A DNA stretch of 11,833 bases from a virus (lineage: Duplodnaviria > Heunggongvirae > Uroviricota > Caudoviricetes): the IMG/VR virus record IMGVR_UViG_2778261064_000021, positions 1 to 11,833 of that record; one strand, written 5' to 3'. A program made the translations under genes and the position numbers. Shown here in pieces: positions 7,291 through 9,264 of the stretch. The stretch's first letter is position 1; every line of letters begins with the position of its first letter. The notes beneath the pieces are model-generated. The model had not been told where the DNA came from, made no database searches, and was given only the letters and a program-made list of their open reading frames with translations.

Positions 7291-7497
7291 ATGGGAACAC
7301 AGAAGCCGGGCGGTGTATCCGTGTACATCAGCCCCGATATTATCGCCGCACTTAATGCGCGCTTTGAGGAGAACGCAGAGGCAGGAAAAAAAATCGGCCT
7401 TGATCCGTTGTGCATGGTGAAGCCGTCAGTCGGCTGGATGGTACGCAGTCATTTACGTGCTGCGCTTGGTATGAATCAGCCTCATGGGGGTGAGTAA
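7291..7497 (+). CDS. Hypothetical small protein, 68 aa, first gene of the capsid operon
   Basis: AAGAGG 10 nt upstream of ATG 7291; its stop overlaps the capsid gene start (TAATG); internal start of track ORF 7228..7497. Confidence 0.5.
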   Translation: MGTQKPGGVSVYISPDIIAALNARFEENAEAGKKIGLDPLCMVKPSVGWMVRSHLRAALGMNQPHGGE

Positions 7498-8552
7498 TGA
7501 CAGATAAGGCGCAACCACTGAACACAAACCAGCTTTTTTCCTATCTGAATCGTCCTGATGTTGATGATTTTAAATTCAACCCGCTGTTTACCACGTTATT
7601 TTTCCCTAACGTCGCAACCTTCGATACACAGAAGATTATGTTAGATGATCTGGAAAATGACGAAGTAACCATGTCGGCATTTTGTTCGCCGATGGTGGGT
7701 AGTCAGGTTCAGCGTGATAAAGGGTACGAAACAAGCATTATCCAGCCTGGCTACATGAAGCCAAAACACGAAATCGATCCATCAAAAACCATTATGCGTG
7801 TTGCTGGTGAAGATCCGGCAGCACTCAACAGCCCGTCTTATCGTCGCCTCCGCCTCATTACCGGCAATCTTCGCCGTCAGGTAAAAGCCATCAAAGCCCG
7901 TGTTGAATGGCTGGCGGTAAATGCAGTCACTACCGGAAAAAATATCATTGAGGGCGAAGGCATAGAACGCTACGAAATCGACTGGAGGATGCCAGCAAAC
8001 TGCATTATCCAGCAGGGGCCAGGGAAAAAATGGTCTGAGCAGGATAAAGAGACGCATGATCCGACAGATGATATTGAACTGTATACCGAACAGGCTGAGT
8101 GCCCCGCGAACGTCATGATTATGGGGGCGAATGCCTGGCGATTGTTACGCAGCTTTAAAAAATTCCGGGAACTTTATGATTTGTCCCGGGGGTCAGAGTC
8201 TGCGGCAGAGCTGGCGTGTAAAAACCTGGGCGAAGTGGTGAGCTTTAAAGGCTACCTGGGAGATCTGGCGCTTATTGTTTATTCCGGTAAATACACCGAC
8301 AGCGACGGCACAGAAAAACATTTTCTTGATCCTGATTTGCTTGTTCTGGGGAACACCAGCAATAAAGGACTGGTAGCCTATGGGGCAATTATGGATCAGG
8401 ACGCGGTAAGAACTGGCACAACACGAAATATGTACTACCCGAAAAACTGGATTGAGCCAGGCGATCCGGCGATTGAGTACGTGCAGACGCACAGCGCACC
8501 GCAACCGGTTCCGGCAGATATCCGCAAATTTGTTACCGTGAAAATTGGTTAA
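7497..8552 (+). CDS. Major capsid protein homolog (phage lambda gpE family)
   Basis: 351 aa; recalled lambda gpE matches in blocks FKFNPLF..LFF (lambda FKFDPLF..LFF), PGYMKPKHEIDP (PGYVKPKHEVNP), YDPTDDIE (identical), YPKNWIEPGDPA (YPKNWVTTGDPA); similar length. Confidence 0.85.
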   Translation: MTDKAQPLNTNQLFSYLNRPDVDDFKFNPLFTTLFFPNVATFDTQKIMLDDLENDEVTMSAFCSPMVGSQVQRDKGYETSIIQPGYMKPKHEIDPSKTIMRVAGEDPAALNSPSYRRLRLITGNLRRQVKAIKARVEWLAVNAVTTGKNIIEGEGIERYEIDWRMPANCIIQQGPGKKWSEQDKETHDPTDDIELYTEQAECPANVMIMGANAWRLLRSFKKFRELYDLSRGSESAAELACKNLGEVVSFKGYLGDLALIVYSGKYTDSDGTEKHFLDPDLLVLGNTSNKGLVAYGAIMDQDAVRTGTTRNMYYPKNWIEPGDPAIEYVQTHSAPQPVPADIRKFVTVKIG

Positions 8553-8564
8553 CGGGGGATTTTT

Positions 8565-8900
8565 ATGGGCGTTCCATATATTGAATTATTTTCCGGTACA
8601 CAGCAGGTTTCCACTACGCTGGTGCACTTTGCCGCTGATGCCGGAGCTATTCCCGAGTTTACCCCGCTGATGATGACGGAGAACGGCGAGTTTAAGGCGT
8701 GGGACGGTCAGGAATCAGGCAAGGCCATTTATCTGACCTCCTACCCCCTGGACACGGCAAAGCAAAAATCCGCACAGTGTTACAAGACAGGGATTTTTAA
8801 TATTGCCGCCGTTAACTGGCCTGAAAGCGTCACTACAGACGTGAAGAAATGCGCAGCTTTTGCGGGGTCAGGTATATCAGTTCAGCCACTGGCGCGATAA
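8565..8900 (+). CDS. Head decoration protein homolog (phage lambda gpD family)
   Basis: 111 aa; recalled lambda gpD (110 aa) matches in TPLM...AWDG...YK.G.F....V.WPE....D.KK..AFAG..IS. Confidence 0.75.
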   Translation: MGVPYIELFSGTQQVSTTLVHFAADAGAIPEFTPLMMTENGEFKAWDGQESGKAIYLTSYPLDTAKQKSAQCYKTGIFNIAAVNWPESVTTDVKKCAAFAGSGISVQPLAR

Positions 8901-8916
8901 TTACGGGGGGGGGGAT

Positions 8917-9264
8917 ATGCCAAAGAATGAAGCCGTTATGTCGTTAATGCTTGCCAGAAAATTTCCTGTTGAAGCCAGGGCAATGGCAGATGAAGGGATG
9001 CCGCTTTATGAAGCCAGAAGTAATCTTGAGGCTCTGGATAGGCAGGATAAAAATCGCGTCAACGCTATCATGGCTCTGAGTGACGCACCTGAATATCAGC
9101 CGTTATTGCGTGGCATGGCTAGCGTCTCGCGTCTTGATGCAGATATGGCGAGCGAACTACTAAGCGCAATGATGAAACAGGATGCGACCATTTATGCAGA
9201 TGCTGGTTATGCAGGTGAAGGTTATGATACGGATACCATCGATCGCATACTGAAAAACATCTGA
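8917..9264 (+). CDS. Hypothetical protein, 115 aa
   Basis: ATG preceded by a G10 tract; followed by a strong terminator; no recognisable domain. Internal start of track ORF 8860..9264. Confidence 0.55.
   Translation: MPKNEAVMSLMLARKFPVEARAMADEGMPLYEARSNLEALDRQDKNRVNAIMALSDAPEYQPLLRGMASVSRLDADMASELLSAMMKQDATIYADAGYAGEGYDTDTIDRILKNI

What the first reader, a model, noticed from the sequence alone, without database searches (positions are those of the whole stretch)
7291..9264. Satellite encodes lambda gpE-like capsid and gpD-like decoration proteins, in reversed order and without portal, protease or scaffold
The island has a major capsid homolog followed by a decoration homolog (lambda has D before E), flanked by two unknown small proteins (68 aa and 115 aa), and nothing else of a head module. 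This could mean the island builds or re-sizes capsids using helper-supplied portal, protease and scaffold, or that its capsid proteins co-assemble with the helper's to alter capsid size.
Basis: partly seen in the sequence, partly recalled or inferred. Interest (0 to 1): 0.65.

Follow-up and report, generated by a model that had tools for sequence, protein, structure and literature searches.

The report
Satellite island's spare lambda-type head-shell genes
A phage-parasitising island of E. coli carries its own lambda-like capsid, decoration and (newly recognised here) scaffold genes. This gene block is already described in the model island EcCICFT073, where it can be deleted without affecting transfer, so the finding is real but mostly known.

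Summary
The four ORFs are real and lie exactly where stated:
- 68 aa, 7291-7497
- lambda gpE-family major capsid protein (MCP), 7497-8552
- gpD/SHP-family decoration protein (Dec), 8565-8900
- 115 aa, 8917-9264

The capsid gene precedes the decoration gene, the opposite of lambda and Gifsy-1. The window is an EcCICFT073-type Gram-negative PICI next to hpt.

The block is the homologue of EcCICFT073 c1498-c1501 (MCP 85% and Dec 84% identical; c1499 is PDB 3BQW), described in 2018. Published work shows that deleting c1499 or c1500, or replacing all of c1498-c1501, leaves transfer intact. The two single deletions also leave lambda interference intact, and DNA goes into phage-sized heads.

The 115-aa protein is a stand-alone homologue of the C-terminal scaffolding domain of lambda gpC/gpNu3 (hhalign 98%, E 5.5e-14; same PHROG as the Gifsy-1 gpC C-terminus). 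The island therefore carries scaffold, coat and cement, followed by cos-like sites and a full-length Nu1-type TerS.

All four genes are under purifying selection (median dN/dS 0.13-0.27). MCP and Dec form PICI-specific lineages; no phage MCP is more than 48% identical.

Best reading: a conditionally redundant lambda-type head-shell kit, whose role in nature is unproven. Known feature, modest interest.

The parts
7291..7497 (+). 68-aa protein, homologue of EcCICFT073 c1498; function unknown; its stop codon overlaps the MCP start (TAATG)
7497..8552 (+). Major capsid protein of the lambda gpE family (PICI-specific lineage), orthologue of EcCICFT073 c1499
   Evidence: PF03864 E 3.8e-49 and phrog_29 5.6e-103. 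PDB 3BQW (CFT073 'putative capsid protein of prophage') E 4.6e-206, and lambda gpE 7VI9 E 4e-84. It is 85% identical to c1499 and 44.5% to lambda gpE. The best hit among 50,697 phage records is Gifsy-1 at 47%. Median dN/dS is 0.13.
8565..8900 (+). Head decoration (cement) protein of the gpD/SHP family, orthologue of c1500
   Evidence: PF02924 E 3.1e-16 and phrog_49 5.8e-26. PDB 1TD0 (phage 21 SHP) E 5.6e-14. It is 84% identical to c1500 and 30% to lambda gpD. Median dN/dS is 0.19.
8917..9264 (+). Stand-alone gpNu3/gpC-C-terminal-type scaffolding-domain protein (short form), homologue of c1501
   Evidence: - Window protein against phrog_1999: E 4.6e-15.
- Gifsy-1 gpC residues 362-493 hit the same phrog_1999 at 1.7e-52.
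- c1501 hits the C-terminus of phrog_53 'head maturation protease' at 1e-8.
- A family profile scanned over 1.84 billion proteins finds Nu3-repeat proteins (E 2e-12) and the C-terminus of an S49 peptidase, a gpC homologue (E 5e-4).
- hhalign of the family against a phage gpC/Nu3 C-terminal profile gives probability 98.2%, E 5.5e-14 over 116 columns.
- The AF2 model is all-helical, pLDDT 83.5.
- It is 42% identical to c1501 by BLASTP (50% in a MAFFT alignment). It lacks the 'FxxFMxxHSP' segment found in the 137-aa forms.
9263..9296 (+). Intrinsic terminator closing the four-gene block
   Evidence: A 13-bp hairpin followed by a T10 run. Folding energy is -20.8 kcal/mol, z-score -5.85 against shuffled sequences.
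9299..9414 (+). cos-like site A (cosQ-like, cosN-like and the start of a phage-21-like cosB) upstream of terS. Part of the associated packaging module, outside the finding.
   Evidence: It is collinear with the lambda left end and with EcCICFT073 cos1. 'GGGGGTACGTGTAC' sits where lambda has GGGCGGCGACCT. The cosB region is 77-80% identical to those of phage 21 and PhiR5_1. It is one arm of a 116-nt inverted repeat.
9517..10101 (+). Full-length Nu1-type small terminase (not an Rpp). Part of the associated packaging module.
   Evidence: PF07471 covers 1-162 of 164 positions, E 4e-68. It is 52% identical to lambda Nu1 over 180 aa. Lambda TerS 6HN7_B scores E 1.5e-38, while RppC scores only E 0.02. 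It is 70% identical to PhiR5_1 Nu1 and 60% to phage 21 gp1.
10207..10322 (-). cos-like site B, an inverted copy of site A downstream of terS
   Evidence: The arms of the inverted repeat are 116 nt long and 78% complementary. See also the alignment. EcCICFT073 likewise has two sites, cos1 and cos2 (PMC6092414).

Best explanation
Shown:
- The region is the 'late' block of an EcCICFT073-type Gram-negative phage-inducible chromosomal island.
- It encodes, in one terminator-closed unit, a 68-aa protein of unknown role, a lambda gpE-type coat protein, a gpD/SHP-type cement protein and a stand-alone gpNu3-type scaffolding domain.
- These are the three non-enzymatic components that form a lambda-type head shell, in the order E-D-Nu3, the reverse of the phage order C/Nu3-D-E.

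Inferred:
- After helper induction the three proteins co-assemble into lambda-type shells on the helper's portal. The helper also supplies protease, large terminase, head-completion proteins and tail.
- The island's own Nu1-type TerS and cos sites direct island concatemers into these or into helper-made heads.
- The kit is a supplement or back-up to the helper's own E, D and Nu3. That would explain why it is dispensable with lambda, phi80 and the CFT073 prophage in the laboratory yet conserved in nature.
- It would matter when helper shell proteins are limiting, incompatible or interrupted, as in helper-embedded islands inserted in the helper's E gene.
For: - **Identity.** See for MCP and Dec, and for the scaffold.
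- **Cognate set.** A cement protein binds only an assembled, expanded lattice (established for lambda gpD). Keeping a cognate Dec and a cognate scaffold next to the MCP therefore makes sense only if the MCP forms shells.
- **Selection.** Median dN/dS is 0.13 (MCP), 0.19 (Dec), 0.25 (scaffold) and 0.27 (68 aa) over 10-26 pairs, similar to the island's TerS and SSB. ORF lengths are constant (351/346 aa; 109-113 aa) in 11 tabulated loci from E. coli, Kluyvera and Kosakonia.
- **Intact where neighbours decay.** MCP and Dec are intact in L009 and L010, where the replication helicase or the TerS is a pseudogene.
- **Old island-specific lineage.** MCP identity is 53-97% among islands of different sequence types and 42-48% to phages. 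Dec identity is 50-99% among them and 27-35% to phages.
- **Prevalence.** MCP genes covering at least 80% of the query occur in 619 of 5,426 complete E. coli genomes.
- **Expression signals.** All four ORFs have strong Shine-Dalgarno sequences and share one terminator.
- **Back-up idea.** Helper-embedded islands sit inside the helper's E gene and carry their own E (PMC10111431; L008 and L010).
Against: - Published genetics on the orthologous block show no effect of deleting c1499 or c1500 on transfer or on lambda interference. Only phage-sized DNA was found in particles, and the authors report no phenotype (PMC6092414).
- The whole c1498-c1501 block can be replaced by cargo and the island is still transduced.
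- My suspicion that the c1501::tetA marker had broken the scaffold gene was wrong. The primer arm ends at the c1501 stop codon, so the gene is intact.
- One natural locus (L013) has a nonsense mutation in the MCP.
- A second island architecture (L007, L008, L010, L011) has MCP and Dec but a 127-aa HTH protein instead of the Nu3-like gene.
- At about 45% identity to helper gpE, compatibility with helper portal and protease is unproven.
- No particle composition data exist.
Confidence: 0.4

Rival explanations
1. Capsid-size redirection. The island coat and/or scaffold, alone or mixed with helper gpE, would build small (T=3 or T=4) heads that fit one or two copies of the ~11-kb island and exclude the helper genome, as SaPIbov5 Ccm or SaPI1 CpmB do.
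For: - The island is about 10.6-11.3 kb, judged from the att repeat in L003, roughly a quarter of a lambdoid genome.
- The island has its own scaffold homologue, and scaffolds are classic size determinants.
- PmCI172, another Gram-negative PICI with an MCP homologue, makes small capsids (PMC6092414).
- TerS-type islands like this one have never been tested with a working helper.
Against: - For EcCICFT073 with lambda, all packaged DNA was phage-sized.
- After induction of the CFT073 strain itself, no island-monomer band appeared. That marked island carried intact c1499-c1501.
- The deletions did not relieve interference.
- An identical MCP (100% aa) occurs with Rpp in L009 and with TerS in L003, so the block is not specific to one packaging strategy.
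Confidence: 0.12
2. Interference weapon. The island coat or scaffold proteins would poison head assembly of competing, non-helper lambdoid phages or rival satellites by mixed, dead-end assembly, or by competing with gpC for procapsid entry.
For: - A protease-less copy of the domain thought to target gpC into the procapsid could in principle act as a competitor (inference).
- Interference is a hallmark of PICIs.
- The block recombines as a mosaic, as expected for arms-race genes.
Against: - Overexpressing individual EcCICFT073 genes of this region, other than rppA, did not reduce lambda plaquing (PMC6739421).
- Deleting c1499 or c1500 did not restore lambda growth.
- dN/dS of 0.13 on the MCP is strongly purifying rather than diversifying.
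- A poison would not need a cognate cement protein.
Confidence: 0.1
3. Non-structural role, for example a decoy or trigger for capsid-sensing defence systems or a regulatory function, or no function at all (a decaying relic of captured late genes).
For: - No phenotype has been found in the published transfer and interference tests.
- One natural nonsense allele exists.
- Capture of late genes by PICIs is documented (PMC10111431).
Against: - Purifying selection acts on three adjacent, functionally matched structural genes, and their lengths are conserved across genera.
- The lineage is old and island-specific rather than freshly captured.
- No defence-related domains were seen, though the padloc library was not searched.
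Confidence: 0.1

Closest known systems
EcCICFT073 c1498-c1501 (E. coli CFT073 PICI; Fillol-Salom et al. 2018, PMC6092414; c1499 structure PDB 3BQW)
   Same: It has the same four genes in the same order and the same place in the island: after SSB and before cos and the packaging gene. Sizes are 68, 351, 111 and 137 aa. Identities to the window are 65% (68 aa), 85% (MCP), 84% (Dec) and 42% by BLASTP (scaffold).
   Different: - The window's scaffold homologue is a short form (115 aa) lacking the FxxFMxxHSP segment.
- The window carries a full Nu1-type TerS where EcCICFT073 has RppA.
- Its cosN-like sequence is not lambda's.
- It is integrated next to hpt rather than next to phoQ.
Phage lambda head genes C/Nu3-D-E, and the homologues in phage 21 and Gifsy-1
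   Same: The protein families are homologous: gpE coat, gpD/SHP cement and the C-terminal scaffolding repeats of gpC/gpNu3.
   Different: - The order is reversed (E-D-Nu3).
- There is no S49 protease domain, no portal and no gpA.
- Identity to the phage proteins is only 27-48%.
- The scaffold has two repeats rather than being nested in a protease gene.
Capsid-forming PICIs (cf-PICI, e.g. EcCIEDL933; Alqurainy et al., bioRxiv 10.1101/2022.09.08.507074)
   Same: It is a satellite with the int-alpA-rep backbone that encodes its own capsid protein and small terminase. Its capsid lineage is separate from phage homologues.
   Different: cf-PICIs encode the complete head and packaging set (protease, portal, connectors, HNH, TerS and TerL), make their own small capsids and steal only tails. 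This island has only scaffold, coat, cement and TerS.
Helper-embedded PICI 11capE and relatives (PMC10111431)
   Same: It is a Gram-negative PICI carrying its own gpE homologue. That paper states that capsid genes are the commonest late gene in GN-PICIs (21 of 29 reference islands) and are not required for transfer. L008 and L010, fetched here, are of this type.
   Different: Those islands integrate inside the helper's late genes. The L008 and L010 type has an HTH protein instead of the Nu3-like gene and lacks the 68-aa gene. The window's island sits in the chromosome next to hpt.
SaPIbov5 Ccm, SaPI1 CpmB and P4 Psu/Sid (satellite-encoded capsid-modifying proteins)
   Same: All are satellite-encoded relatives or mimics of helper head proteins: Ccm is a coat homologue, CpmB a scaffold mimic and Psu a cement protein. 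This comparison rests on established knowledge and the review PMC6893505.
   Different: Those proteins have a demonstrated size-redirection or stabilisation phenotype and act on helper-made coat protein. Here the orthologous block shows no size or transfer phenotype, and the island brings a matched coat-cement-scaffold set.

Membership tests
Gram-negative PICI of the EcCICFT073 type | Integrase at the left end, followed by co-oriented alpA, a replication module (primase or helicase plus SSB) and a late/packaging zone; no lysis or tail genes | tested here: met
   The integrase has PF00589 and Arm-DNA-bind_3, and AlpA has PF05930. The primase has D5_N and Pox_D5, and SSB is present. The Rfam int-alpA RNA lies at 1236-1302. 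Gene order is the same as in CFT073, Nissle and other islands.
Gram-negative PICI of the EcCICFT073 type | Size of about 10-12 kb, bounded by att repeats at a specific chromosomal site | tested here: inconclusive
   The sister island L003, at the same gcd-hpt site, has a 36-nt repeat 10,570 bp apart. The window starts at the integrase start codon, so attL is not in the window.
Gram-negative PICI of the EcCICFT073 type | Induction by, and high-frequency packaging by, a helper phage | not testable with these tools
   This needs an experiment. TerS-type E. coli islands transferred poorly in 2018 and no helper was identified (PMC6092414).
Lambda gpE major capsid family (PF03864, HK97 fold) | Full-length profile match and collinearity with gpE | tested here: met
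   PF03864 covers residues 26-349, E 3.8e-49. Lambda gpE 7VI9 aligns residues 22-350 to 14-340. The alignment has no large indels.
Lambda gpE major capsid family (PF03864, HK97 fold) | Assembles into an icosahedral shell | not testable with these tools
   There are no particle data. The published deletions show no phenotype.
gpD/SHP head decoration family (PF02924) | Profile match over the trimer-forming core | tested here: met
   PF02924 covers residues 10-102, E 3.1e-16. 1TD0 SHP aligns residues 7-106.
gpC/gpNu3 C-terminal scaffolding domain (phrog_1999; C-terminus of phrog_53) | Tandem ~40-aa helical repeats (approximate consensus RIMAL-EA-GRE-LA--LA--PGMT-E-A--LL) followed by a C-terminal tail | tested here: met
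   hhalign gives probability 98.2%, E 5.5e-14. The Gifsy-1 gpC C-terminus hits phrog_1999 at 1.7e-52. The library scan hits Nu3-repeat proteins and the C-terminus of an S49 peptidase. The window protein alone against the phage profile is weak, P 0.0027.
gpC/gpNu3 C-terminal scaffolding domain (phrog_1999; C-terminus of phrog_53) | Conserved FxxFMxxHSP segment before the tail | tested here: not met
   The segment is present in the 129-141-aa island forms and in phage gpC. It is deleted in the window's 115-aa form, and a different linker replaces it in the closest 134-aa relatives.
Capsid-forming PICI (cf-PICI) | Encodes portal, prohead protease, head-tail connectors and large terminase in addition to the MCP | tested here: not met
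   No such ORFs or domains occur in the window.
Rpp-type cos PICI packaging (RppA/B/C) | A ~144-153-aa Rpp protein that heterodimerises with helper TerS | tested here: not met
   The packaging gene is a full-length Nu1 homologue. RppC scores only E 0.02.
Ccm-type size-redirecting capsid homologue (SaPIbov5) | A satellite MCP homologue whose presence causes small capsids and phage interference | not tested
   This was not tested on this island. For the EcCICFT073 orthologue the literature reports phage-sized DNA only and no interference phenotype.

The most novel reading that the evidence does not exclude
With its natural helper, the scaffold-coat-cement trio builds island-specified heads on a stolen portal, and the island's own TerS and cos sites fill them. 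That would make this an intermediate, 'semi-capsid-forming' class of satellite between classical PICIs (which steal whole heads) and cf-PICIs (which steal only tails). The laboratory helpers used so far would have masked it, because their own heads suffice.
Probability: 0.2. Interest if true: 0.7.

Novelty: already known. Interest (0 to 1): 0.3.

Why it matters
Capsid genes are the commonest phage late genes carried by Gram-negative PICIs. MCP genes of this type, covering at least 80% of the query, are in 619 of 5,426 complete E. coli genomes. Yet the only published tests found no phenotype, so their purpose is an open loose end in satellite biology.

The third gene is recognised here as a gpNu3-type scaffold. 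This turns an odd pair of capsid genes into a complete shell-forming set. That gives a sharper, testable hypothesis: complementation of helper E, D or Nu3 amber mutants, and proteomics of particles.

If the set does build heads, these islands would bridge classical and capsid-forming PICIs. If not, a strongly conserved capsid triad would have a non-structural job.

Tried and rejected
1. **Marker caveat.** I suspected that the published null results were confounded because the marked island is called c1501::tetA and c1501 is the scaffold homologue. I rejected this. The primer arm maps to L004 2438-2497 and ends at the c1501 stop codon, so the cassette lies after an intact gene.
2. **'Phage head-tail connector protein'.** This is the NCBI name for c1501 homologues. 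It has no support in Pfam or NCBIfam.
3. **115-aa protein as a gpFI analogue.** No similarity.
4. **68-aa protein as a gpW analogue (also 68 aa) or a ribbon-helix-helix regulator.**
   - There is no sequence similarity to gpW.
   - Its function stays unknown.
5. **Fold searches of the 115-aa model.**
   - BFVD gave only weak hits. These were thematically consistent: the top hit is 439 aa, the length of lambda gpC, and 'Peptidase S49' and 'Prohead protease' also appear.
   - afdb50 was unavailable.
6. **The search for related loci with an MCP alignment.** It returned nothing usable. The single-protein scan gave only two loci.
7. **Strict co-inheritance of MCP, Dec and scaffold as one cassette.** This holds only at the level of broad types. 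L014 shows finer mosaicism: Dec 95%, MCP 84% and scaffold 54% identical to the window.
8. **The 127-aa third gene of the Kluyvera and Kosakonia islands as a diverged Nu3 repeat.** Rejected (hhalign probability 0.1%).
9. **Word-indexed homologue search with the 115-aa protein alone.** It found only 2 hits.
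Full report
**What is there.**
The window is a co-oriented island:
- integrase, 1-1227
- Rfam int-alpA RNA, 1236-1302
- a 309-aa unknown protein
- AlpA
- a DUF4222 protein
- a D5-type primase, 4274-6079
- SSB, 6610-7032
- the block in question
- a Nu1-type small terminase
- a 94-aa protein
- the chromosomal hpt gene

It is the organisation of Gram-negative phage-inducible chromosomal islands. Sister islands with the same layout sit at gcd-hpt, cspD-clpS, tRNA-Pro/yejM and next to phoQ in other E. coli strains.

**The observation.**
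- The 351-aa protein is a full-length gpE-family coat protein: PF03864 E 3.8e-49, 44.5% identical to lambda gpE, and collinear with it.
- The 111-aa protein is a gpD/SHP-family cement protein: PF02924 E 3.1e-16. Its best solved relative is phage 21 SHP.
- Lambda and Gifsy-1 have D before E. All 14 island loci I examined have E before D.
- No portal, protease or large terminase is present.
- Each ORF has a strong Shine-Dalgarno sequence. The 68-aa stop overlaps the MCP start. A -20.8 kcal/mol hairpin with a T-run closes the block at 9263-9296.

The 115-aa protein has no Pfam or NCBIfam hit, but five lines of evidence place it.
- It belongs to phrog_1999.
- A profile of its family, run by HMMER over 1.84 billion proteins, finds proteins made of the tandem ~40-aa repeats of gpC/gpNu3 (E 2e-12). 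It also finds the C-terminal 80 residues of an S49 peptidase whose N-terminus is nearly identical to lambda gpC (E 5e-4).
- Profile-profile comparison with an alignment of phage gpC/Nu3 C-termini gives probability 98.2%, E 5.5e-14 over 116 columns.
- Reciprocally, Gifsy-1 gpC residues 362-493 hit phrog_1999 at 1.7e-52, and CFT073 c1501 hits the C-terminus of the 'head maturation protease' PHROG at 1e-8.
- The AF2 model is an all-helical protein, pLDDT 83.5.

In lambda this region of gpC/gpNu3 is the scaffolding domain (established knowledge of lambda head assembly). The island therefore carries scaffold, coat and cement in the order E-D-Nu3, the mirror of the phage order C/Nu3-D-E. The window's version is a short form lacking the FxxFMxxHSP segment of the 129-141-aa forms.

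The 68-aa protein remains unassigned. Its model has two helices and matches no known fold.

**It is already known, and it has been tested.**
The block is the homologue of EcCICFT073 c1498-c1501, which encode proteins of 68, 351, 111 and 137 aa. c1499 even has a crystal structure, 3BQW.

Fillol-Salom et al. 2018 named c1499 a capsid protein and c1500 a head decoration protein. They reported the following (PMC6092414):
- Deleting either gene changes neither transfer nor lambda interference.
- Packaged DNA is phage-sized.
- They could find no phenotype for c1499.

Other papers add three points:
- In 2019 only c1503 (rppA), among the genes downstream of ori, inhibited lambda when overexpressed (PMC6739421).
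- Synthetic islands with all of c1498-c1501 replaced by cas9 or melA are still delivered from a phi80 helper (PMC10530653, PMC10460865).
- A 2023 survey states that capsid genes occur in 21 of 29 reference Gram-negative PICIs and are not required for transfer. It also describes islands that insert into the helper's own E gene (PMC10111431).

I checked one possible loophole, that the c1501::tetA marker had disrupted the scaffold gene. The primer arm ends at the c1501 stop codon, so the gene is intact.

**Yet the genes are clearly maintained.**
- Median pairwise dN/dS is 0.13 for the MCP, 0.19 for Dec, 0.25 for the scaffold and 0.27 for the 68-aa gene. These are comparable with the island's TerS and SSB.
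- MCP and Dec are intact and of constant length in 11 tabulated loci from three genera. This holds even where the neighbouring helicase or TerS is a pseudogene.
- One of the 14 loci has a nonsense codon in the MCP.
- Island MCPs of different sequence types are 53-97% identical to each other but only 42-48% to phage MCPs. No phage among 50,697 records exceeds 48% for either of two island types. Dec behaves the same way.
- This is therefore an old island-specific lineage, not a recent capture.
- MCP genes covering at least 80% of the query occur in 619 of 5,426 complete E. coli genomes. The window's exact allele is in one of them.

**Modularity.**
- The same MCP (100% aa) is found with an Rpp in L009 and with a TerS in L003.
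- The window shares its 68-aa gene (97-99%) and its TerS (98%, with L003) with those islands, but has a 63%-identical MCP.
- L014 has Dec at 95% but the scaffold at 54% identity to the window.
- A second architecture lacks the 68-aa and Nu3-like genes and has a 127-aa HTH protein after Dec.

**Mechanism.**
I commit to the following, with about 40% confidence. The three proteins are a working lambda-type shell kit that assembles on the helper's portal. It supplements or replaces the helper's E, D and Nu3, so it is redundant with lambda, phi80 and the CFT073 prophage.

The logic rests on three points:
- A cement protein binds only an expanded lattice.
- A scaffold is useful only to a coat protein that assembles.
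- All three genes are under purifying selection.

Size redirection (about 12%), interference with other phages (about 10%) and a non-structural role or none (about 10%) are weaker, for the reasons given under the rivals. The rest is unknown. Every functional step is inferred. Only identities, homologies, selection and the published null phenotypes are shown.

**Context of the block.**
Immediately downstream lie two cos-like sites forming a 116-nt inverted repeat around a full-length Nu1-type TerS. The TerS is 52% identical to lambda Nu1 and 60-70% to phage 21 gp1 and PhiR5_1 Nu1. The cosB is phage-21-like, and a non-lambda sequence sits at the cosN position.

This island is therefore of the TerS type rather than the Rpp type. 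No helper was reported for the TerS-type islands tested in 2018. The published null results thus come from a related but not identical packaging context.

**Verdict.**
The interpretation repeats a hypothesis the field has already tested, with negative results, on the orthologous genes. Novelty is low. The residual interest lies in the unexplained conservation and in the now-complete scaffold-coat-cement set.

Noticed in passing
window 9299-9414 and 10207-10322: A 116-nt inverted repeat (78% complementary) flanks the terS gene. Each arm is collinear with the lambda and EcCICFT073 cos regions, but carries GGGGGTACGTGTAC or GGGGGTAGCCATAC where lambda has the cohesive-end sequence GGGCGGCGACCT. 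The helper's large terminase may therefore have a different nicking specificity.
   Followed up: partly
window 9517-10101: The packaging gene is a genuine full-length Nu1-type small terminase, closest to phage PhiR5_1 (70%) and phage 21 (60%), with a phage-21-like cosB upstream. It is not the Rpp protein of the model island EcCICFT073. An identical capsid block occurs with either TerS (L003) or Rpp (L009).
   Followed up: partly
window 1236-1302: An Rfam int-alpA RNA (RF02996, 55 bits) lies between the integrase and the 309-aa ORF.
   Followed up: no
window 7495-7499 (junction of the 68-aa gene and the MCP): There is a recombination breakpoint here. The 68-aa gene is 97-99% identical to those of islands L003 and L009, while the MCP that starts one base later is only 63% identical. 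TerS is again 98% identical to L003.
   Followed up: yes
L008 10695-13231 (Kosakonia sp. S29) and L010 6565-6836 (E. coli 200177): These related islands are inserted inside a lambdoid prophage's major capsid gene E. The 3' part of E, followed in L008 by FI, FII, Z and U, comes directly after the island. These are helper-embedded PICIs that carry their own E homologue.
   Followed up: partly
L013 2589-3641 (E. coli GCA_011318515.1): One natural copy of the island MCP carries a single in-frame stop codon in place of a conserved tryptophan and is called as two ORFs, while Dec, scaffold and TerS are intact.
   Followed up: partly
window 10674-10735 and 10814-10875; L003 12834-13188 (four copies): Imperfect 45-62-nt direct repeats (core ...TGATATTTTCGG...) lie between the last island gene and hpt. 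They may be integrase arm sites or attachment-site-associated repeats.
   Followed up: no
window 2681-3325 (+) and 2809-3093 (-): Only the C-terminal 92 residues of the 214-aa + strand ORF match a PHROG 'transcriptional repressor' family, so the real gene is probably shorter. A 94-aa ORF on the opposite strand overlaps it, at the place where sister islands have a YlcI/YnfO-family gene on the minus strand.
   Followed up: no
L009 184-1599 and L010 4865-5416: In two sister islands the replication helicase or the small terminase is annotated as a pseudogene (internal stop), while the capsid and decoration genes next to them are intact.
   Followed up: no
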